Shown here piece by piece: positions 961 to 56,107 of a stretch of DNA of 64,000 bases. The translations under genes were made by a program, and so were the position numbers. The DNA comes from a phage, in sequence record PZ379176.1, one strand, 5' to 3'. Numbering within the stretch: position 1 is the first letter of the stretch; each line of letters opens with the position of its first letter. The notes under the pieces are model-generated. The model was not told where the DNA came from, did not search any database, and saw nothing but the letters and a program-made list of their open reading frames with translations.

Positions 961-1182
961 ATGAAACTAGACTCTAAGCAGTCACTTAAAACCGTTGAGC
1001 TGTCCACGCTGCCAAACGGAAGTATTTTTGGTCATGATAAACACTTCTGGATTAAAACAGACATCATAGACGATGGATATATCACCTGTGTCAATCTTTG
1101 GAACGGTTCAGTGGATGGTTATCGCCCTAGCGCAAAGGTAGTCCCTCAGCCTGATGCTAAGGCTGTAGGTTTAGTTTACTAA
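961..1182 (+). CDS. hypothetical protein, member of small paralog family (see 2576-3574)
   Basis: N-terminal pattern K..TV.LS.LP.G..F shared with the four tandem ORFs at 2576-3574. Confidence 0.5.
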   Translation: MKLDSKQSLKTVELSTLPNGSIFGHDKHFWIKTDIIDDGYITCVNLWNGSVDGYRPSAKVVPQPDAKAVGLVY

Positions 1183-1191
1183 GGAGTTCAT

Positions 1192-1365
1192 ATGAGCTGT
1201 TATGGTGGCGGTGAAGTGTGTGATGACGACGACATGGAATCCAATGGTACATGCCCTGACTGTGGGTGTGAGACATTTGATGGAGTGTCAGTATACCCTG
1301 CCTGTAGTTACTCACCAGTGATCTGTAAAACATGTGGAGATCAACCTTGTGACCAGTCTTGTTAG
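1192..1365 (+). CDS. small Cys-rich (zinc-ribbon-like) protein, 57 aa, not in ORF track
   Basis: AAGGAG RBS then ATG 1192; translation contains CPDCGC and CKTCGDQPCDQSC; stop TAG 1363-1365. Confidence 0.4.
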   Translation: MSCYGGGEVCDDDDMESNGTCPDCGCETFDGVSVYPACSYSPVICKTCGDQPCDQSC

Positions 1366-1366
1366 T

Positions 1367-1591
1367 ATGTTAATAGCCTATCTGATAGGATCAGTAGTAT
1401 CAGGTGTTCTGATTAAGATTATAGATGTTAAAGGTAATCAGTGTTTCAGAGGTTGGGATGGTGAGCCAGACCTCGGAAAGATAGCAGCTATGGTTTTCTT
1501 GTGGCCTATTATTGCTGTACTATTTATAGCACTCGTATCATGGGCTGCTCTTTGGGATTTCATCCTTCCTAACAAAAAGTATGAGGACTAA
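1367..1591 (+). CDS. small membrane protein (two hydrophobic helices)
   Basis: Track ORF 1334..1591 trimmed to ATG 1367; strongly hydrophobic segments. Confidence 0.45.
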   Translation: MLIAYLIGSVVSGVLIKIIDVKGNQCFRGWDGEPDLGKIAAMVFLWPIIAVLFIALVSWAALWDFILPNKKYED

Positions 1592-1722
1592 TGACTGAAG
1601 AATTTTTAAAGTGGTTTGGTGATACCTTCAAAGAGTATCTATTCTCTCCAGAAGACTTTGAAGAACTGAAAACCTACACTTGGTTGGCTTGGAGAGATAG
1701 CCGACGAGAGATGAATAAGTAA
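1591..1722 (+). CDS. hypothetical small protein (43 aa)
   Basis: ATG overlapping upstream stop (TAATG); in-frame to TAA 1720-1722. Confidence 0.3.
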   Translation: MTEEFLKWFGDTFKEYLFSPEDFEELKTYTWLAWRDSRREMNK

Positions 1723-2255
1723 TATCGTGAAGGATTCTTACGAGAGTCCTTTGAGATAGGACTTCAGATCTCCTATCAAACTAACATTCATGTAACTAGC
1801 CCATAAGGGCGTTACCCTTTAATAACCCAGCCCACTAAGGGGGCGGGAGTTTAGTGCTGGATTAGCATAACGCTTATTCCTACAAAGGCAACCGATTGTT
1901 AGGTCTTACATGCAATATTAATTAATAGGATAAGGGAGGATTCGTCCCCTCCCCTATTCATAAACTATTAGGAGAGTACATTAGCTGATTAGCTGTGGAA
2001 GGTAGGCCGATATCTACAGCGTGGCCCAGAGCTAGTGTACTCCCCAATAACTTTAGGGTAAATGTGGAACAACCTTTTAATTACAGGTATAGCTTATGGG
2101 ACTCAGTAATGCAGAGTCTACGGTAAAGCAGTCGCCCGTGGTCGAATGACCGTATGCCCATTGGATGCATTCCTTTGGTGATGGCTAGGGAGTCCGAGCG
2201 TAGGTTCGAATCCTACACCTGTAACCAAATTGAATAATAGCTAATTGGAGGATGT
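1723..2255 (+). ncRNA. 530-bp ORF-free structured region ending in a tRNA-like 3' end (T-arm GTAGG-TTCGAAT-CCTAC, acceptor ACCTGTA, discriminator A, CCA at 2225-2227); candidate unusual or interrupted tRNA, or other structured RNA
   Basis: No ORF of 60 aa or more; perfect 7-nt acceptor complement TACAGGT at 2082-2088; hairpins at 1755-1777 and 1933-1952; no canonical cloverleaf found by hand. Confidence 0.3.
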
Positions 2256-2567
2256 ATGAAAGCACGAAGAACTATATGGACTCCGATGCAGATTGAAAAT
2301 CTTCGGAGACTAATCAAAGAGTACTCGGTTCAAGAAGTTGCTCAGATTATGAATGTAACGGAGAATGCAGTTAACGCAGCTTGTACTAAATTCGGAATAT
2401 CAAGAGCTTCAATCCGAGTTAAATGGTCTGAAGAAGAAGACCAGTTCCTTATCCGTAATGCTGGGTTCATGTCTATTCAGAGAATGGCTGACATGCTCGG
2501 TAGAAGTTATGCTGCTGTACAGAACAGAGCATGTATGCACCTTAACATTAGCCTCAAACTTAAATAG
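2256..2567 (+). CDS. putative DNA-binding regulator with two tandem helix-turn-helix-like repeats
   Basis: GGAGG RBS; repeated segments SVQEVAQIMNVTENAVNAA and MSIQRMADMLGRSYAAVQNRA. Confidence 0.5.
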   Translation: MKARRTIWTPMQIENLRRLIKEYSVQEVAQIMNVTENAVNAACTKFGISRASIRVKWSEEEDQFLIRNAGFMSIQRMADMLGRSYAAVQNRACMHLNISLKLK

Positions 2568-2575
2568 GAATCAAT

Positions 2576-2830
2576 ATGAAAGTTAACGAATTGAACAAAA
2601 CTATCAAGACTGTGAAACTCCACACTCTGAAGAAGGGCGATACCTTCCGGCTGGAAGAGAACGGTCCAATTCATATGGTCTGTACTGCGGCATCTACTAA
2701 TTGGGTAGAAGTTGCACGAGATCGAGTCGTGTGTGTCAGACTGGAAGATGGACACTTAAGTGGCCCCGTTGAGGGCATCTCTGTTATTCCTGTTAAGGTT
2801 GAAGCTAACGTTATTAAGGATTCTAAATGA
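2576..2830 (+). CDS. hypothetical protein, tandem paralog 1 of 4
   Basis: Four consecutive 81-84 aa ORFs with overlapping stop/start codons and a shared N-terminal pattern. Confidence 0.55.
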   Translation: MKVNELNKTIKTVKLHTLKKGDTFRLEENGPIHMVCTAASTNWVEVARDRVVCVRLEDGHLSGPVEGISVIPVKVEANVIKDSK

Positions 2831-3078
2831 AGATTACCCACAAGAAAGAAGAAGTGACCACGATTGATCTCAACTCCCTCCCCAGCGGAGCAGTGTTTAA
2901 ATTCCCTGAGAGTGCTACTCTCTATGTTAAAGGGTCTGTGTCTGAAAGTCCTAATGTAACCGTTAACTCTGATCGAACAATTACTCTTCGTCTATCCGAT
3001 GGTAACGTAACAGCACCTTCTATCTGGTGCCGAGTTGTTCCTGTATCAGCAGAACTTTTGGTGGATAATACGCAATGA
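2827..3078 (+). CDS. hypothetical protein, tandem paralog 2 of 4
   Basis: As above; ATGA stop/start overlap. Confidence 0.55.
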   Translation: MKITHKKEEVTTIDLNSLPSGAVFKFPESATLYVKGSVSESPNVTVNSDRTITLRLSDGNVTAPSIWCRVVPVSAELLVDNTQ

Positions 3079-3320
3079 AAATCATCCCAAAGAAAAAGGA
3101 TAATACGGTACGATTGGAAACAATCATTCCCGGAAACCCTTTCGTGGTTCAGAACGGAAGTGCCTCTCCTCAGTATTACATGAGGGTTGAAAATGCTTCT
3201 GGTAACATCCGTATAGCCAGTGGTTGGGTTCCTGTGGTAAACCTTTCCACAGGTGTGTTATCTGTTAAAGGTCTTGATGATCAGGTAGAAATGATTCGTA
3301 TGTCAGTGGTTCAGGAGTAG
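3075..3320 (+). CDS. hypothetical protein, tandem paralog 3 of 4
   Basis: As above. Confidence 0.55.
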   Translation: MKIIPKKKDNTVRLETIIPGNPFVVQNGSASPQYYMRVENASGNIRIASGWVPVVNLSTGVLSVKGLDDQVEMIRMSVVQE

Positions 3321-3574
3321 TGCATATGAGCATTATTAACATTAAAGTTAAAGACAAAGAGGAAAAAATCCTCCGCGTCAGAGATCTAAATATGTCAGAT
3401 GTGTTCACTCTCCAAGAGTGCCAAAATCAAAAGGTTTATATGATGACAGCTAAAAGCAGGGGTTGTCAACCTGCTGGAGCTGTTAACCTAGGCACTGGAG
3501 AACTACGTGTCATCTCTGGTGATATGGTTGTTGGTGAGAAGTTTATTAAGGCTGAAATCATCTTAACTTCGTAG
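3320..3574 (+). CDS. hypothetical protein, tandem paralog 4 of 4 (more diverged)
   Basis: As above. Confidence 0.5.
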   Translation: MHMSIINIKVKDKEEKILRVRDLNMSDVFTLQECQNQKVYMMTAKSRGCQPAGAVNLGTGELRVISGDMVVGEKFIKAEIILTS

Positions 3575-3806
3575 GGAAAACAAATGAGACGTAAAGCATA
3601 TTCTTATGACGATATGATTAACCAGAAAGGCTTCGGTCAACGACAGCCTGACGGTTCAATTATCTGGTTCGTAAACGGACAGAAAAAGGTAGCTAAATAA
3701 GCCCTCTTCTCTCCTCCTTTTAGTACTATGACGCCTCTCTGTGGGCGGCCCGATTTGCGTAGGGAATTCCCTCTACGCAGCCATAATTTTTTAAGGAATT
3801 TCCCCT

Positions 3807-4040
3807 ATGTCTAAAGTAAGCGCAATCGATGCAATCCGTCAACCGTTTCAGTTCCAATCCAAATCAACCCAAACCTTCAGCGAACCTAAGCAAATTCGCT
3901 TGGGTGGTACAGAGAAGACTGTGTTTGATCTGGCTAAAAACAAGAGCGTTACCGTAGTTGATGGTGGCACTCTGGTTAACGTTTCTCATCGCATCCGCAC
4001 TGGCAAAACTGCCAAAGATCGTGCTAAGAAAGGTGAGTGA
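3807..4040 (+). CDS. hypothetical protein
   Basis: ORF track; preceded by GGGAATTCCC palindrome and T-run. Confidence 0.45.
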   Translation: MSKVSAIDAIRQPFQFQSKSTQTFSEPKQIRLGGTEKTVFDLAKNKSVTVVDGGTLVNVSHRIRTGKTAKDRAKKGE

Positions 4041-4255
4041 TGATAACACTTGTGTCTGTAGTTTACAGATTACACTATCGCCTAGATAAAGGAAAATCTT
4101 ATAAATGCAAGAGTAAGACAGGGAATCTATGCTCTGTAGAGAACAACTCTGGTCAATGGGTGAATGTTCCTTGTTGCTGGTTCAGGAAAGATTTGACTAG
4201 CAAAGAGATTGACGAAATTCTTAGTGATGATTTTGTAAAATCAGGTGATTTTTAG
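4037..4255 (+). CDS. hypothetical Cys-containing protein
   Basis: ORF track; ATGA overlap with upstream gene. Confidence 0.4.
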   Translation: MMITLVSVVYRLHYRLDKGKSYKCKSKTGNLCSVENNSGQWVNVPCCWFRKDLTSKEIDEILSDDFVKSGDF

Positions 4256-4270
4256 TTGTAGTAACGCCTA

Positions 4271-4290
4271 TAGCCTTCTTCGGAGGGCTA
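4271..4290 (+). other. 8-bp GC-rich hairpin with UUCG tetraloop immediately after gene 4037..4255
   Basis: TAGCCTTC-TTCG-GAGGGCTA; no clear T-run after it. Confidence 0.5.
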
Positions 4291-4411
4291 TGTGAGTTAT
4301 TCTGACTCAACTAACCTAATCTTAATATATTTCCCGTATGGGGCCGATGCTAGGGAGAGGAACATTCCTCGAACATCCGTCGGATAGATATTTTAAGAGC
4401 AGGTTATCCAC

Positions 4412-50210: not shown

Positions 50211-50702
50211 TTAATATTTACCTTCGGTATAAAGATTAGCTTCTGCAACTCTTCTGTTATGAAGACCCTGACTTCTCTGCTTCTCTCCCTTGACCGTTAT
50301 TTTATCCCAACGAAGAAATTCGGAATAAACATCCCCCTTAACATCTCCATTGATTACTTTCCTTAACTTAGATGTGCTCAAAGCACCACTGCCAACGTTG
50401 AAGTTGAAAGAAGTGAGTGCATCAAACTCATGAACTAGCAAAGGAACCTTTATGTTCTTCTGAGTAGCACGAACAGAGTCTTGTGTGTCTCTATCTAGCA
50501 GAGCTAGACAATCCTCTATAGAATACGTTAATCCTTGTCTAACCGGATAACCATTCATATCACGCGTAGCCCCTACACATATAGTCCAGATACCTGCGGA
50601 ATCTTTATAAGCCTTGGTTCTCATACCCTCATGCTTCATGATGAATTCCATTCCAGCTGGGCTTAAGTTTAGTTGTACAGGTGGCAATGCGGCGTTATCC
50701 AT
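50211..50702 (-). CDS. endolysin (T4-lysozyme-like muramidase)
   Basis: N-terminal HEGMRTKAYKDSAGIWTICVG pattern (catalytic Glu, then D and T). Confidence 0.7.
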   Translation of the reverse strand: MDNAALPPVQLNLSPAGMEFIMKHEGMRTKAYKDSAGIWTICVGATRDMNGYPVRQGLTYSIEDCLALLDRDTQDSVRATQKNIKVPLLVHEFDALTSFNFNVGSGALSTSKLRKVINGDVKGDVYSEFLRWDKITVKGEKQRSQGLHNRRVAEANLYTEGKY

Positions 50703-51044: not shown

Positions 51045-52064
51045 TTACTTAGCAGCCAGTTGAGCTTCTAACTCTTCTACACGCTTCAGCAAATTCTGAA
51101 CAACCTGCATAGTGTCAAGTAGCATAGGAGTTGTGTCTAACTCTTTCTGCTCTTTCATAGAATCGCCGTTTCCAGTTCCGGGATACTTACGAGTCTTGAC
51201 ATACAGAGGTTCTACCGTCTCTGCCTGCTGTGCAATGATACCACGACGAGATCGATTCTTCTCATCATCGTTGTAAACAAAGGATTTGAACTTCAGTCCT
51301 TTTATTACTTCAATAGCTCTTTCTGCATCAATATCAACAATGTTATGTTTCAGGTTTTCATCCGAGACGCCACTCTTTGTAGGACCACCAGAACCGCCAC
51401 CACTGTTACGAAGCTGTCTCAAAGTAACTGCATCGTAATCTCCAACTGCATCAGGAACAGTTACAGGTTGAGAGAAAGTCACCTTCTGAGTAAGCTGTTT
51501 GATATCAGAGTTAATCCCTGTACGAGTAACCCCAACAGTACGTCCCTTAGAATCTTTGACATAAGAACCAATTGCAGCGAAAGGCAAATCCTCAATCTCT
51601 GGACGATACCGTTTAGAATAAACTGGATACTTAGTTTCTACTCCAGAGTCGTTCTGGTCTACTACTTGAAGACGACCAGCAGAGTGAATCTCTACCCCCT
51701 GAACGGAAGAAGCATAGCTACCAATCTTGATTGAGTTATCAGGAGTAACCTTCATCATATCCACAGACTCTACACCATTAGCCCCAGCAGAACGGAAAGG
51801 GATGTTATTATCTACAAAAGGGTCTGCTTTGAATAAAGCACCCTCCATGATAGGCTGTATTGAATCTAAAACATAATCCTTAGATGCACCTTCTGTTTTA
51901 GTCTGATATGTAGCAGCCGCATCGGTTTTCTGTAAATACTTATCAGTCAGGTTCACAGCTCCTGCCTGACCATCTACTGTAGAAACACCAACAACTGCCG
52001 CATCTCTAGTCACAACTACGTGAGGCATCATTATGCCAGATTTGGGCATTAATTCTCTAGACAT
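51045..52064 (-). CDS. tail fiber/spike protein with C-terminal intramolecular-chaperone (S74-like) domain
   Basis: C-terminal NDDEKNRSRRGIIAQQ...LLKRVEELEAQLAAK pattern. Confidence 0.5.
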   Translation of the reverse strand: MSRELMPKSGIMMPHVVVTRDAAVVGVSTVDGQAGAVNLTDKYLQKTDAAATYQTKTEGASKDYVLDSIQPIMEGALFKADPFVDNNIPFRSAGANGVESVDMMKVTPDNSIKIGSYASSVQGVEIHSAGRLQVVDQNDSGVETKYPVYSKRYRPEIEDLPFAAIGSYVKDSKGRTVGVTRTGINSDIKQLTQKVTFSQPVTVPDAVGDYDAVTLRQLRNSGGGSGGPTKSGVSDENLKHNIVDIDAERAIEVIKGLKFKSFVYNDDEKNRSRRGIIAQQAETVEPLYVKTRKYPGTGNGDSMKEQKELDTTPMLLDTMQVVQNLLKRVEELEAQLAAK

Positions 52065-52104: not shown

Positions 52105-54846
52105 TTACTTAACTGGCATCTCTACACGAACTGAGATAAAAGCATCACTTGGAATATCAATAGGATCTCCATCAGAAAAACCTTCTATCTCATTTCTAGC
52201 AAAAACTGGAGAGGTCGGGTGAGTTCTGTGATAGGTTTTAACTAAAATAGAACCATCCTCTTTAACCTTATAATCTAACCAAATTCTAGGCTGCTTGTTG
52301 CGGTCTACAGGGATTTCAAACCCACCATCCACCCCACCCCAACTAGCGTCTACGTTTAAACCAAGGCAACCAGTAATCAAATATTCACCAATACCTTGCC
52401 GAATGACACTAACCCCCTCAGACTCATCATTCGTTTCATATCGACCGTCAGAGTAAACTTTAACTATCGGAGATGCCGCTTTGATGAATCCATTTACATC
52501 AACAGTGGTATTTTTGTCTGTGAGACACTGAACATATTTTGTTGTCCCATCTGCAACTTTTATCGCGTAAATTACACGACCATACCCTGAGGCCGCACCA
52601 CCAACCCCTGCGTATGACACAGCGTGAGCAATCCAGAAGTTAGTATCCTCTGGCTGCATATACCAATAGCAGTTAAACATGTCTACAGTAAACATGCCAT
52701 TCCCGGCGACGTGCTGGACTCGAGCACCAGTACCACCTGTACCTGTATTTGCTGGAGTGTTGCTCAATGCTCCAATATTTCTCAGAGCACCATCAGCATC
52801 TGTTGCCCCGGTTCCCCCTCTTCCAACTGACAAAGCTACATCACCAGCTAATCCAGATATGGTACGGTAACACCCCCATCCGTTATTATCGACAAACATG
52901 TAAGTTTCTTTATTCGGAGAAAAGATTTTAGTCTCCACAGAACTTTGTTCTACTCTGTCTACTCCTAAATTAGACTTAGCACCCGCAGCAGTGCTAGCAC
53001 CTGTACCGCCATTTGCCACTGGAATATTATCTAGTGTAGAAACAGAACCAAGTCCTAAATTAGATCTGGCGTCACTGGCATTCTTCGCCCCTGTACCGCC
53101 ATTTGCCACTGGAATATTATCTAGTGTAGAAACAGAACCAAGTCCTAAATTAGATCTGGCGTCACTGGCATTCTTCGCCCCTGTACCGCCATTTGCCACT
53201 GGAATATTATCTAGTGTAGAAACAGAACCAAGTCCTAAATTAGATCTGGCGTCACTGGCATTCTTCGCCCCTGTACCGCCATTTGCCACTGGAATATTAT
53301 CTAGTGTAGAAACAGAACCAAGTCCTAAATTAGATCTGGCGTCACTGGCATTCTTCGCCCCTGTTCCACCCTGAGTAACAGACAGTGCTGTCGTAAGTCC
53401 AGTCATAGATGTTATATCAGAGTTTGCACCAGCAGCAGCAGCACCTAATATAGACCTGGAGATATTGACGTTACCTGTAGTTTCATCAGGAGCTTGGTTG
53501 TTTACAGTGACTACATAAGGAACCTGAGACTGAACCCCACCTTTGTAATTAGCATCTTTACTAGAATCAGGGGAGCGAATAGCCTCACCACCTGTCCAAT
53601 CTGGAAGACGTATATTAATGAAGTTAGTGGCATCCGCATCAGTTACACCATCAGTGAGTTTACCCCAAGAGAAATACTGACGAGCACCAGCTTGCCACTC
53701 TGTTTCAGAGACCACAGGAAGCTGACCACTGACTAGAGATGGGCCTAAGTCTAGAGCAGACTCTTTTGACACCAAACGACCATCGGCAGGAAGAACCCCC
53801 GGATATGAGATATTCTTCGTTGGGTCGTAAGGAAACATTACCATCTCGCCAAGATACAGAGATGGGTTTCCTGTTGGAATGGTAATGTCAATGTTACCAC
53901 TAGAGTCTGGAGAACGGGAGTTAACGGTAAGGATTCTACCTTCAGTTTTAACAGGAGTTAGTGTTTTGTTAGCAGCAACCGTATAGAATTCATACTTAGT
54001 AGCTTCCCAAACTAAGACCTGCTCTCCAACTTGACGGTACTGAGCATCAGCATCAGCTTCTGCTTTTGATTGGTATGTCTTGGTAGTTTTGTCAAACTTG
54101 TCATTAATCTCTTGACGGCTGTATTGAGCAACGTTCAGAACATTCCCTAAACCTACTGTCTCTTTGTTAAACGTTAGAGCAACCTCTCCATCAAGAGCTG
54201 GACCCCCATTAACAGAAACAGAACGAACAACAGATGGGATTAAGTTAGCAATGTTCTCTAGAGTGGTTTTGTGGACAGTATTGTCATCTTTGTCAACATA
54301 GAAACCTAAGTCACCTAACTCTGGAACACCGGTAGGTGCTGTATCTAAATCCTTAACAGAACCATCCTTTCCGGGATCACCTTCTGGAATACCTAAAGAG
54401 ATTACACCAGTGGTCGGATTAAAAGAACCAGTAGCCGGAGTTCCCGGAGGAAGTGTAGTTACGTCAACGGACATTCCTAACAGAATATCAAGCTGATTCT
54501 GAACTTCAATAAGTTTCTGATTAATGAGAGCAACAGCATTGTTAGCATCAGAGACTGCTGCGTTAGTTTGAGCAATCAAGCTCATCAGACGAGCATCTTG
54601 ATCTATAAAATCCTGCTTAAGATCTTCGATATCCTGCTTCATCAGAATACCTTGTTGATACAGACGTTCTACTTCAGCAATCAAATCATCAATCGTACCA
54701 AACTTAGACTCCGCTAGCAGTGCCCAATATTTGGAGTCAGCTGCGTATTCTGCTGCTTGCTTATAAGCTCCGATAGAGCCTTCAGTAGCACCAAACTGCC
54801 CAACGTTATTCACTGCATCAGGTGCTTGGTTATTATAAACGATCAT
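52105..54846 (-). CDS. long tail fiber protein (913 aa) with four identical 30-aa tandem repeats
   Basis: Repeated GGTGAKNASDARSNLGLGSVSTLDNIPVAN units; N-terminal coiled-coil. Confidence 0.6.
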   Translation of the reverse strand: MIVYNNQAPDAVNNVGQFGATEGSIGAYKQAAEYAADSKYWALLAESKFGTIDDLIAEVERLYQQGILMKQDIEDLKQDFIDQDARLMSLIAQTNAAVSDANNAVALINQKLIEVQNQLDILLGMSVDVTTLPPGTPATGSFNPTTGVISLGIPEGDPGKDGSVKDLDTAPTGVPELGDLGFYVDKDDNTVHKTTLENIANLIPSVVRSVSVNGGPALDGEVALTFNKETVGLGNVLNVAQYSRQEINDKFDKTTKTYQSKAEADADAQYRQVGEQVLVWEATKYEFYTVAANKTLTPVKTEGRILTVNSRSPDSSGNIDITIPTGNPSLYLGEMVMFPYDPTKNISYPGVLPADGRLVSKESALDLGPSLVSGQLPVVSETEWQAGARQYFSWGKLTDGVTDADATNFINIRLPDWTGGEAIRSPDSSKDANYKGGVQSQVPYVVTVNNQAPDETTGNVNISRSILGAAAAGANSDITSMTGLTTALSVTQGGTGAKNASDARSNLGLGSVSTLDNIPVANGGTGAKNASDARSNLGLGSVSTLDNIPVANGGTGAKNASDARSNLGLGSVSTLDNIPVANGGTGAKNASDARSNLGLGSVSTLDNIPVANGGTGASTAAGAKSNLGVDRVEQSSVETKIFSPNKETYMFVDNNGWGCYRTISGLAGDVALSVGRGGTGATDADGALRNIGALSNTPANTGTGGTGARVQHVAGNGMFTVDMFNCYWYMQPEDTNFWIAHAVSYAGVGGAASGYGRVIYAIKVADGTTKYVQCLTDKNTTVDVNGFIKAASPIVKVYSDGRYETNDESEGVSVIRQGIGEYLITGCLGLNVDASWGGVDGGFEIPVDRNKQPRIWLDYKVKEDGSILVKTYHRTHPTSPVFARNEIEGFSDGDPIDIPSDAFISVRVEMPVK
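53001..53360. repeat. 4 perfect tandem copies of a 90-bp unit inside the tail fiber gene
   Basis: Unit starting ctgtaccgcc and ending ttcttcgccc repeated at 53001, 53091, 53181, 53271; degenerate copies flank. Confidence 0.95.
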
Positions 54847-54855
54847 ATTATCTCC

Positions 54856-55632
54856 TTATACACGAGAAGTACGAATACCATAAATATCAGGCAGGCTGCT
54901 CTGAAGTCGAGTCATGTTATTCGGAATTGCGATAGGTGAACCTGAGTACTCTTGTTTCTTATTCTGCTCTACCATTTCATCAAGGATAGCTTTTCCTAAT
55001 GCTGACCATTTCTGAACACCATTATCATCTTGAACAAACAAGCAAGCATGACGTAGTGTGAAGTACAGAAGAAGTTCTGGTGCGATAGTAAGAATAGCAC
55101 TAGTGTCTGTATCTTCGTGGAATTCCGGTGGATCTGCATAATAACTGAGAATCACTGAGTTTTCTGCTGGAATCAAAGGGCTTCCATCATCAGGATAAAC
55201 AGGAGTATCTGCTTCAATACTAGGGTAGAAAATGAAACGACTCCCGAAACGAGCAAAGTTAACAGGTTGGTTATTCCAGTGAGATGGATTAACTGTTCCA
55301 TGCTGTCTACGATAGCTAATCTCTTCAGGAGATGTTACTTGGAAGATTGCACCATCTTTGGCTCTCATCATCCATTGAGCTTCTAAGTAATCAGGAGGAA
55401 TATAAGCCACTCCATCTTTGATATCTAAATACACTTCTTTTTCCAGAGGAGGGATTCGTAAGTTACGATAAATCTCTTTCTCTGCAAAGTTAATAAAGTT
55501 TGGAATTTGATTAACAAATTCATCATCGTCCCTATCTGCCCAGAGGGCCACGGCCTTCTTTAGCCACCCATAGGTATTGATGGGGTATTGAACTTCAGGC
55601 AACATAGGATACCTCCTTCCAGTTTGTGCCAT
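54856..55632 (-). CDS. virion structural protein (possible head-tail adaptor)
   Basis: ORF track; position between capsid module and fibers. Confidence 0.4.
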   Translation of the reverse strand: MAQTGRRYPMLPEVQYPINTYGWLKKAVALWADRDDDEFVNQIPNFINFAEKEIYRNLRIPPLEKEVYLDIKDGVAYIPPDYLEAQWMMRAKDGAIFQVTSPEEISYRRQHGTVNPSHWNNQPVNFARFGSRFIFYPSIEADTPVYPDDGSPLIPAENSVILSYYADPPEFHEDTDTSAILTIAPELLLYFTLRHACLFVQDDNGVQKWSALGKAILDEMVEQNKKQEYSGSPIAIPNNMTRLQSSLPDIYGIRTSRV

Positions 55633-56107
55633 TGATTATTAGGCTTATTGTGCTTGAAGAGACTCCAAACTTCCTAGCTAAAGCTCTAGCTCCGAACTGT
55701 CTGTCCCTCGGTTTATAGTTCTCTAAACAGAAAAGAACTTGTTCTTTAGTAAGTTTGGAATTAGGATTATCCTCAAGATTTCTTGGTGTTGAGAGTTTTG
55801 TTTCATAAGCATGTACACAGTTTTCTTGTTGAGTACACCACTCTAGATTCTCAATCCTGTTATCATCTTTTATTCCATTCTTATGGTTGACATAATCCTT
55901 CCCTTCTACCTTAGGAAGAAAAAGTTCAGCTATGACCCTATGCTCTAAATATGATTTCTTTTTAAAAGTCACTTTACGATAACCTCTGTCGCCAATACAC
56001 CCGGCACGTTGTCCTTTCTGCTTATTAAAGATGTTACTCATAGACCAGAAAAGATGCCCTGTATTTGGATCATAGGTAAAAGCTTCTCTGAAATCAGGCA
56101 TTGCCAT
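55595..56107 (-). CDS. HNH homing endonuclease (freestanding, inside structural module)
   Basis: YVNHKNGIKDDNRIENLEWCTQQEN HNH segment; C-terminal helix-turn-helix-like region. Confidence 0.65.
   Translation of the reverse strand: MAMPDFREAFTYDPNTGHLFWSMSNIFNKQKGQRAGCIGDRGYRKVTFKKKSYLEHRVIAELFLPKVEGKDYVNHKNGIKDDNRIENLEWCTQQENCVHAYETKLSTPRNLEDNPNSKLTKEQVLFCLENYKPRDRQFGARALARKFGVSSSTISLIINGTNWKEVSYVA

What the first reader, a model, noticed from the sequence alone, without database searches (positions are those of the whole stretch)
53001..53360. Four perfectly identical 90-bp tandem repeats encoding a 30-aa module inside the long tail fiber gene
Nucleotide-perfect copies imply very recent expansion or ongoing slippage/recombination. 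Copy number would change fiber shaft length in 30-aa steps and could modulate host range. Alternatively the copy number may be an assembly collapse or expansion artefact.
Basis: seen in the sequence. Interest (0 to 1): 0.55.

Follow-up and report, generated by a model that had tools for sequence, protein, structure and literature searches.

The report
Recently amplified tail-fibre shaft module
A 90-base stretch encoding one 30-amino-acid building block of a coliphage's long tail fibre has very recently gone from one copy to four identical in-frame copies; this is a clean but fairly ordinary example of how phages resize their fibres.

Summary
Window 53000-53364 is a 365-nt perfectly periodic tract (4 x 90 + 5 nt), in frame in the minus-strand ORF 52105-54846. 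It encodes GGTGAKNASDARSNLGLGSVSTLDNIPVAN four times. The window is a Kuravirus (phiEco32/SU10-like E. coli podophage). The gene is the homologue of SU10 gp12, the proximal subunit of the long tail fibre, not the receptor-binding subunit.

The 30-aa unit is the family's normal shaft module. Relatives carry 0-3 such spacings, and their adjacent copies are only about 50-77% identical in DNA. A metagenomic kuravirus allele (L022) that is 96-98% identical around the site has exactly one copy with the same flanks. The array is therefore a derived 1-to-4 amplification. Its internal junction is a hybrid joined at a 5-nt microhomology (ACAGG) inside the GGTG-coding motif.

Independent perfect 90-nt arrays occur at the same place in other kuraviruses: XT32 5.8 copies, XT73 3.8, TH34 2.6. 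Copy number differs between near-identical isolates. XT18 (out-of-frame partial unit) and TH34 also show that these arrays get misassembled, so "four" needs long-read or PCR confirmation; at least two copies must be real.

Any effect on host range is untested. This is a new member of a known kind. The adjacent distal fibre gene lacks both receptor-binding domains.

The parts
52105..54846 (-). Proximal long-tail-fibre gene (913 aa), homologue of SU10 gp12
   Evidence: ORF list and translation. PDB 7Z47_D SU10 'putative tail fiber' matches aa 1-546 and 777-913, E=0. phrog_10305 tail fiber. The role of gp12 is taken from PMC9509320.
53371..54846 (-). Conserved N-terminal part (aa 1-492): adaptor-binding end, coiled coil and proximal shaft. 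It ends in ..GANSDITSMTGLTTALSVTQ, which resembles the tail of a 40-aa-type GGTG module
   Evidence: Gene nt 1-1080 are 96-99% identical to SGF2. AF2 predicts helices at aa 22-123. 40-aa modules are seen in other fibres.
53000..53364 (-). Perfect 365-nt periodic tract = 4 x 90 nt + 5-nt ACAGG microhomology (plus-strand unit phases 53000-53089, 53090-53179, 53180-53269, 53270-53359, plus 53360-53364)
   Evidence: TRF; script.
53011..53370 (-). The four 30-aa modules in protein phase (aa 493-612): 53281-53370, 53191-53280, 53101-53190, 53011-53100
   Evidence: A predicted short helix recurs every 30 residues at DARSNLG (low confidence).
52819..53010 (-). 64-aa long-type GGTG module (aa 613-676, GGTGASTAAGAKSNLGVDRVEQ..WGCY..). 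Its first 11 nt supplied the 3' partner of the duplication junction
   Evidence: It is 94% identical in protein to the corresponding module of P0016.
52738..52818 (-). Terminal 27-aa GGTG module (aa 677-703). High similarity to L022 ends within about 40 nt downstream of its GGTG motif
52114..52512 (-). C-terminal domain PF25670 Phage_tail_C_2 (aa 779-911), confidently predicted and beta-rich
   Evidence: Pfam E=8e-60; AF2 block-mean pLDDT mostly about 80-94 from aa 790.
54856..55632 (-). Adaptor protein gene (SU10_adaptor), the docking site of the long tail fibre
   Evidence: Pfam PF24175 E=4.5e-29; PMC9509320.
51045..52064 (-). Distal long-tail-fibre gene (SU10 gp13 homologue), only 339 aa: the N-terminal anchor (aa 1-228) joined directly to the S74 intramolecular chaperone. 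Both receptor-binding domains are absent
   Evidence: BLASTP against SU10 gp13: aa 1-235 match 1-235 (92%) and aa 229-339 match 613-723 (88%). Junction sequence. Pfam Peptidase_S74.

Best explanation
This is a genuine, very recent in-frame tandem amplification of one native 30-aa shaft module of the kuravirus proximal long-tail-fibre protein (SU10 gp12 homologue).

The ancestral allele had one copy, followed by a 64-aa long-type module. A first duplication arose by replication slippage or illegitimate recombination between the GGTG-coding motifs of these two neighbouring modules. The exact microhomology was ACAGG, within an imperfect ~14-nt match. Once two 90-nt copies existed, ordinary homologous slippage or unequal crossing-over could add or remove whole units, reaching the four copies reported.

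The unit is 30 codons, so every copy-number variant stays in frame. The array therefore acts as a length dial and not as an on/off switch. Each unit adds 30 residues per chain to the trimeric shaft. That shaft lies between the conserved N-terminal half and the C-terminal domain, which I infer carries the distal subunit.

Shown here: the repeat, its reading frame, the single-copy allele, the hybrid junction, and recurrence with copy-number differences in other kuraviruses. Inferred: the slippage/recombination route, the physical lengthening, and any phenotype.
For: (1) Perfect 365-nt tract, in frame.

(2) The module is the family's building block. Across 15 kuravirus fibres and 120 homologue clusters, shafts are mixtures of 30-aa and 60-68-aa GGTG modules in varying number and order. 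Gene lengths differ by multiples of about 90 nt.

(3) A pre-duplication allele exists. L022 (Logan SRR32069470; protein P0016) has one copy flanked by the same sequences (..gttactcag|GGTGGAACAGG... and ...GTGGCAAAT|ggcggtacaggtgct). It is 96-98% identical over the surrounding ~630 nt. The unit differs at only 3 internal nt. Bas92 likewise has a single orthologous module that is 91% identical.

(4) The internal junction GGCGGTACAGG|GGCGAAG is a hybrid. Its left part matches the start of the downstream 64-aa module and its right part matches the start of the first module. They share ACAGG, which is the 5 extra nt of the tract. An assembler cannot create this junction from a single-copy template.

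(5) There are zero differences among the copies, against 2-4% divergence from L022 in the flanks. Adjacent modules in relatives are 49-77% identical. The amplification therefore post-dates the split from the closest known allele.

(6) The event recurs. XT32 and XT73 carry 5.8 and 3.8 perfect copies of a different unit, and their genes otherwise differ by 4 SNPs. TH34 has 2.6 copies of a third unit. P0130, a fibre protein from elsewhere, has two identical consecutive 30-aa modules.

(7) Precedents exist for in-frame fibre duplications with variable copy number: EfV12-phi1 (PMC6365445) and T4 gp37 (Tetart 1996, listed in the references of PMC3157838).
Against: No reads are available, so the copy number cannot be verified. 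No near-identical genome exists in any searched collection, so there is no population-level comparison for this lineage. The structure of the module is unknown: only the first 90 residues of gp12 were resolved in SU10, and the AF2 monomer is of low confidence here. The length added per module is therefore not measured. No phenotype is known. At 913 aa the fibre is within the family's natural length range of 730-956 aa, so four copies may have no visible effect.
Confidence: 0.8

Rival explanations
1. The duplication is real, but the number four is an assembly product. Short reads cannot span 365 nt of perfect 90-nt periodicity, so the assembler traversed the cycle an arbitrary number of times. 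The true modal copy number is something else (at least 2), or the population is mixed.
For: XT18 differs from XT32 by 1 SNP but carries a 31-nt partial unit that breaks the reading frame, giving a gene span of 3067 nt split into two CDS. The unverified TH34 record begins and ends inside this gene, and its ends overlap by about 530 nt that contain the array. BASEL relatives were assembled from 151-nt Illumina reads. An assembler looping through a cycle always yields whole, in-frame units, so in-frame integrity is no argument against miscounting.
Against: Nothing in the window itself looks broken. The tract is exact, its flanks match L022, and the ORF is intact. The sequencing technology is unknown; with long reads, 365 nt is trivial to span.
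Confidence: 0.3
2. The array is old, and the copies are kept identical by continual gene conversion (concerted evolution), not by recent amplification.
For: In XT32 and TH34 the perfect tract extends 73 and 53 nt into the neighbouring, otherwise different modules. That could reflect conversion tracts.
Against: The closest allele has one copy. Adjacent modules in 15 relatives have diverged to 49-77% nt identity without homogenisation. Only 1 of 120 homologue clusters shows identical neighbouring modules.
Confidence: 0.05
3. The repeat acts at the DNA or RNA level (repeated binding sites, a structured element, or a gene on the other strand), and the protein repeat is incidental.
For: A 127-aa ORF exists on the plus strand at 52991-53374.
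Against: The unit encodes, in the fibre's frame, the conserved GGTGA..AR.NLGLG module shared by the whole family. The single-stranded fold of the unit is no better than shuffles, z = 0.27. The plus-strand ORF lies almost entirely within the array.
Confidence: 0.02

Closest known systems
SU10 gp12 / kuravirus long-tail-fibre proximal protein (PDB 7Z47; PMC9509320)
   Same: Homologous over aa 1-546 and 777-913. Same gene position after the adaptor gene, and the same C-terminal PF25670 domain.
   Different: SU10 gp12 (786 aa) has one 30-aa module followed by a terminal module. The window protein has four identical ones plus a 64-aa module. The C-terminal half is mosaic.
T4 gp37 host-range duplications (Tetart et al. 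1996 J Mol Biol 258:726; listed in the references of PMC3157838). The details of that study given here rest on my own knowledge
   Same: In-frame tandem duplication of a small fibre domain, generated by exchange between short conserved motifs that flank the domain.
   Different: In T4 the duplicated domain lies in the adhesin tip and host-range expansion was shown experimentally. Here it lies in the proximal shaft and no phenotype is known.
Enterococcus phage EfV12-phi1 tail-fibre tandem duplications (PMC6365445)
   Same: In-frame tandem copies in a long-tail-fibre gene, identical in sequence. Copy number was variable within populations and had to be resolved by long reads and PCR.
   Different: The unit is 1.8 kb versus 90 nt. 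It arose under observed coevolution with capsule mutants. It is not a pre-existing short periodic module.
In-frame VNTR-type repeats in bacterial surface proteins (my own knowledge, not tested here)
   Same: The unit is a multiple of three, the copies are identical, and slippage or recombination changes the length of an exposed fibrous protein without loss of frame.
   Different: Viral structural fibre. The copy-number dynamics have not been measured.

Membership tests
Kuravirus long-tail-fibre proximal protein (SU10 gp12 family) | Sequence homology to SU10 gp12, including the adaptor-binding N-terminus | tested here: met
   phmmer against PDB: 7Z47_D E=0, aa 1-546 and 777-913; phrog_10305.
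Kuravirus long-tail-fibre proximal protein (SU10 gp12 family) | Gene lies immediately downstream of the SU10-type adaptor gene and upstream of the distal fibre gene, holin and endolysin | tested here: met
   Adaptor at 54856-55632, distal fibre at 51045-52064, lysozyme at 50211-50702. The order matches SU10 and YF01.
Kuravirus long-tail-fibre proximal protein (SU10 gp12 family) | C-terminal Phage_tail_C_2 domain | tested here: met
   PF25670 E=8e-60, aa 779-911.
Kuravirus long-tail-fibre proximal protein (SU10 gp12 family) | Forms a homotrimer attached to the adaptor and carries the distal trimer | not testable with these tools
   Only monomer prediction is available. Assembly is known for SU10 only.
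Recent in-frame tandem amplification of a fibre segment (T4 gp37 / EfV12-phi1 type) | Identical tandem copies whose unit is a multiple of 3 nt, inside a fibre ORF | tested here: met
   90 nt = 30 codons, 100% identity.
Recent in-frame tandem amplification of a fibre segment (T4 gp37 / EfV12-phi1 type) | A lower-copy (ancestral) allele exists in close relatives | tested here: met
   L022 is single copy with 96-98% identical flanks. Bas92 has a single orthologous module.
Recent in-frame tandem amplification of a fibre segment (T4 gp37 / EfV12-phi1 type) | Junction formed between short conserved motifs or microhomology | tested here: met
   Hybrid junction at ACAGG within the GGTG-coding motif.
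Recent in-frame tandem amplification of a fibre segment (T4 gp37 / EfV12-phi1 type) | Copy number varies within a population or between near-identical isolates | tested here: inconclusive
   Met for the XT lineage (5.8 vs 3.8 copies, 4 SNPs apart). For this window's lineage, no near-identical genome or reads are available.
Recent in-frame tandem amplification of a fibre segment (T4 gp37 / EfV12-phi1 type) | Changes adsorption or host range | not testable with these tools
   Needs isogenic copy-number variants and plating or adsorption assays.
Phase-variable contingency locus (frameshifting repeat, on/off switch) | Unit length is not a multiple of three, so copy change shifts the frame | tested here: not met
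   The unit is 90 nt, so all integral variants stay in frame.
Diversity-generating retroelement target (template/variable repeat pair) | Two repeat copies that differ at adenine-templated positions | tested here: not met
   The copies are tandem and 100% identical. I did not search for a reverse transcriptase.

The most novel reading that the evidence does not exclude
The GGTG-module zone of kuravirus long tail fibres may be a recurrently used, hypermutable in-frame length dial. Perfect arrays have arisen independently in at least three lineages, and copy number differs between sibling isolates. In this genome the extension of the proximal shaft by 90 residues per chain would be functionally coupled to the neighbouring distal subunit having lost both receptor-binding domains. 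That would be an adaptive rebuild of the fibre in which reach or recognition shifts to the proximal subunit's C-terminal domain or to the short fibres.
Probability: 0.15. Interest if true: 0.6.

Novelty: new member of a known kind. Interest (0 to 1): 0.35.

Why it matters
The finding gives a base-pair-resolved example of how a phage fibre grows. There is a single-copy allele, a hybrid junction at a 5-nt microhomology inside a conserved motif, and then perfect 90-nt units. It also shows that the same event recurs in related phages.

There are two practical consequences. First, tail-fibre lengths and ORF integrity in short-read kuravirus assemblies are unreliable at this spot (XT18, TH34), which matters for phages proposed for therapy. 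Second, the GGTG modules mark natural joints for engineering fibre length or swapping distal parts.

Biologically, the finding offers a simple testable system, with 1-6 modules, for asking whether shaft length affects how a phage gets through O-antigen or capsule layers.

Tried and rejected
- **Exact-unit scans.** IMG/VR, the JGI metagenomes and the GTDB genomes gave no hits. No same-lineage copy-number variants could be retrieved.
- **Protein searches.** I searched with the whole fibre and with the repeat region alone. Nothing full-length exceeds 81% identity, and the repeat-only query mainly pulled in prophage fibres with 40-aa modules.
- **The search for related loci in IMG/VR.** No systematic survey was possible that way.
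- **AF2 monomer of the 913-aa protein.** Mean pLDDT was 56.6 and the repeat zone mostly scored 35-72, so it cannot be used to measure rise per module. Foldseek against PDB found nothing with E <= 0.001.
- **Solved structures.** PDB relatives 8HQZ (DT57C LtfA) and 8VBX (PhiM1 gp47) share the GGTG motif region. For DT57C only the N-terminal part of LtfA was built; the PhiM1 paper does not describe this region.
- **Pfam.** No curated family covers the GGTG module; the Tudor_1_RapA and UnbV_ASPIC hits are weak and spurious.
- **Hairpin-driven slippage.** The single-stranded fold of the unit is no better than shuffles.
- **Corrected error.** I first took LAMP, EK010 and similar phages to have a comparable short distal fibre. 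The 96% coverage there actually comes from two pieces in two neighbouring genes.
- **XT phages.** A literature search for the XT phages' sequencing method found nothing relevant.
Full report
**1. The observation**

Tandem Repeats Finder reports one outstanding array in the window: 53000-53364, period 90, 4.1 copies, 100% matches, score 730. Every other array scores 55 or less. A script looking for the longest run with g[i]=g[i+90] gives the same tract: 365 nt = 4 x 90 + 5.

The tract lies in the minus-strand ORF 52105-54846 (913 aa). It is in frame and encodes GGTGAKNASDARSNLGLGSVSTLDNIPVAN four times, at aa 493-612. In protein phase the first module differs by two synonymous bases in its first two codons, because the perfect tract starts 6 nt inside the module.

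**2. Which gene and which phage**

Over 40000-64000 the window is 93-95% identical to kuraviruses: ShigP1, SU10, phiEco32 and many others. These are prolate E. coli podophages of the Gordonclarkvirinae.

The ORF follows the SU10-type adaptor gene (PF24175) and ends in PF25670 Phage_tail_C_2. It matches the SU10 'putative tail fiber' chain of PDB 7Z47 over aa 1-546 and 777-913. In SU10 this protein, gp12, is the proximal subunit of the long tail fibre. It docks on the adaptor and carries the distal subunit gp13. Only its first 90 residues were resolved, and the whole fibre is about 700 A long with an elbow (PMC9509320).

The BASEL study assigns receptor binding to the distal, T-shaped, dual-RBD protein. 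It describes the proximal protein as the connector (PMC11990801). The repeat therefore sits in the shaft of the connector subunit and not in a receptor-binding domain.

**3. The unit is the family's own building block**

I fetched the orthologous gene from 15 kuraviruses and segmented the proteins at GG[TS]G. All carry modules that start GGTGA..(A)R.NLG. There are short modules of 30 aa (..NLGLGSVSTLDNVPIA[NS]) and long ones of 60-68 aa with an inserted ..SP..WG.. segment. The number and order differ between phages:

- SU10 and KM01 each have one 30-aa module ahead of the terminal GGTG modules.
- Bas92 has 30-64-30-30.
- Bas94 has 64-30-30-30.

Gene lengths differ by multiples of about 90 nt: 2277, 2361, 2559, 2649 and 2742. 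The same holds in 120 homologue clusters from the 5.8-billion-protein collection, where the largest number of 30-aa spacings elsewhere is three and the window has four. Related 30-, 40- and 60-68-aa GGTG modules also build prophage fibres of Citrobacter and Mixta.

In relatives, adjacent 30-aa modules are only 49-77% identical in DNA. They are old copies.

**4. The array is derived and recent**

The best match to the unit is P0016, which is 29/30 identical in protein, and its following 64-aa module is 94% identical. Its DNA is Logan SRR32069470, locus L022. After collapsing the window's array to one copy, L022 is 96-98% identical to the window over most of the ~630 nt around the site. It contains exactly one unit with the same flanks.

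The unit differs from that single copy at three internal positions, and all four window copies share the window's state. Bas92 likewise has a single orthologous module, 91% identical. There are no differences among the copies, against 2-4% divergence from L022 in the flanks. The amplification is therefore younger than the split from the closest known allele.

**5. How it arose**

The internal junction reads GTGGCAAATGGCGGTACAGG|GGCGAAGAAT. Its left part is the sequence that precedes the downstream 64-aa module (..AATGGCGGTACAGGtgct). Its right part is the start of the first module (ggtggaACAGGGGCGAAG). The two share ACAGG, which accounts for the five extra bases of the 365-nt tract.

This is the signature of a duplication formed by slippage or illegitimate recombination between the GGTG-coding motifs of two neighbouring modules. 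Homologous expansion follows once 90-nt repeats exist; that second step is inferred. An assembler cannot create such a hybrid junction from a single-copy template, so at least two copies are real. No hairpin potential was found (z = 0.27).

The same zone is also where the gene's mosaic segments change over:

- Gene nt 1-1080 are 96-99% SGF2-like.
- From about nt 1200 through the module zone it is 96-98% L022-like.
- The C-terminal part is 76-89% Bas92/NJ01-like.

High similarity to L022 ends within about 40 nt of the next GGTG motif. This fits the older idea that conserved fibre motifs serve as recombination joints (Tetart 1996 and 1998, as cited in PMC3157838).

**6. Recurrence, and the assembly caveat**

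Perfect 90-nt arrays of different sequence occur at the equivalent place in other kuraviruses.

- XT32 has 5.8 copies and XT73 has 3.8. Their fibre genes otherwise differ by 4 SNPs and one 180-nt gap.
- TH34 has 2.6 copies of a third unit.
- P0130, a fibre protein from elsewhere, has two identical consecutive modules.
- Among the 120 homologue clusters only the TH34 protein shows identical neighbours, so the state is rare and presumably short-lived.

The public records also show what goes wrong at these arrays. XT18 is 1 SNP from XT32 but carries a 31-nt partial unit that splits the ORF. The unverified TH34 record begins and ends inside this gene, with ends that overlap by about 530 nt and contain the array. 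Copy-number differences between isolates may therefore be real, artefactual, or both.

For the window, no reads and no near-identical genome exist in the collections I could search. The number four is unverified.

**7. What it does**

Each unit adds 30 residues per chain to a trimeric shaft. The unit is 30 codons, so all variants are in frame and the array changes length, not expression.

The AF2 monomer is of low confidence in this zone. It does place a short helix at DARSNLG every 30 residues, and it predicts a confident beta-rich C-terminal domain. Fold search gave nothing.

At 913 aa the protein is within the family's range of 730-956 aa, so the shaft evidently tolerates different module numbers. 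Whether three extra modules change adsorption or host range is unknown.

The closest experimental precedents are duplications in T4 gp37 and the variable 1.8-kb in-frame duplications that Enterococcus phage EfV12-phi1 evolved against capsule mutants (PMC6365445). The kuravirus papers I read do not mention these modules or arrays.

**8. Side finding**

The next gene, 51045-52064, is the gp13 homologue but has only 339 aa. SU10 gp13 residues 1-235 are joined directly to residues 613-723, the S74 intramolecular chaperone. The roughly 384 residues that hold both receptor-binding domains are missing, and there is short microhomology at the junction.

No phage record has an equivalent (the apparent LAMP-type hits are artefacts). 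One metagenomic protein, P0143, is also 339 aa. It has the same N-terminal 227 residues fused to a different S74 chaperone, and it follows a PF25670-type fibre gene. The architecture has therefore arisen at least twice.

Whether the lengthened proximal shaft and the RBD-less distal subunit are functionally linked is open. I rate that at about 0.15.

**9. Verdict**

It is a new member of a known kind, namely recent in-frame tandem amplification in a phage fibre gene. Interest is 0.35. The value lies in the clean junction anatomy, the recurrence across kuraviruses, the warning about assemblies, and a simple experimental handle on fibre length.

Noticed in passing
window 51045-52064 (- strand): The distal long-tail-fibre gene (SU10 gp13 homologue) is only 339 aa. 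The N-terminal anchor (aa 1-228) is joined directly to the S74 intramolecular chaperone, and the roughly 384 aa carrying both receptor-binding domains are absent. The junction shows short microhomology. No equivalent exists in 50,697 phage records. An independent 339-aa analogue with a different chaperone exists in a metagenome (P0143, L027).
   Followed up: partly
L018 (XT18, OR757434) 3001-3374; L016 (XT32) 2949-3471; L017 (XT73) 3001-3343: Three sibling kuraviruses carry the same perfect 90-nt unit in 5.8 copies, 3.8 copies and an aberrant form. XT18 has a 31-nt partial unit that frameshifts the fibre gene into two CDS. This is probably a misassembly in the public record.
   Followed up: yes
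L019/L020 (TH34, MT446407, record ends): The unverified record starts and ends inside the fibre gene. Its two ends overlap by about 530 nt and contain a 2.6-copy perfect array. A frameshift just downstream of the array in the record-start copy truncates the called protein to 585 aa.
   Followed up: partly
window 55595-56107 (- strand): An HNH_3 endonuclease gene (170 aa) lies between the Ig-like decoration gene and the adaptor gene and overlaps the adaptor ORF by 38 nt. It is annotated at this position in Bas86 and XT18, and XT32 has an unannotated 513-nt CDS there. It is absent at this position in SU10, phiEco32, Bas92 and XT73. It looks like a mobile homing endonuclease about 2 kb from the array. 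I did not test any link to local recombination.
   Followed up: no
window 52105-54846: The fibre gene is a three-part mosaic. Gene nt 1-1080 are 96-99% SGF2-like. From about nt 1200 through the module zone it is 96-98% L022-like. The C-terminal part is 76-89% Bas92/NJ01-like. The changeovers lie in or next to the module zone.
   Followed up: partly
proteins P0121-P0140: The GGTGA..AR.NL module comes in 30-, 40- and 60-68-aa versions. It builds the shafts of prophage tail fibres in Citrobacter koseri and Mixta calida (gp53-like C-termini), of DT57C LtfA and of PhiM1 gp47. No Pfam family matched it here. P0130 has two 100% identical consecutive 30-aa modules.
   Followed up: partly
window 52991-53374 (+ strand): This 127-aa ORF on the opposite strand lies almost entirely within the array. 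I read it as a by-product of a stop-free periodic sequence, not as a gene.
   Followed up: yes
L016 (XT32) 1118-4333; L017 (XT73) 1170-4205: XT-type kuraviruses have a single 1011-1071-aa fibre gene between the adaptor and holin genes, instead of the usual proximal plus distal pair. The GGTG array starts at aa 278 instead of aa 492.
   Followed up: no
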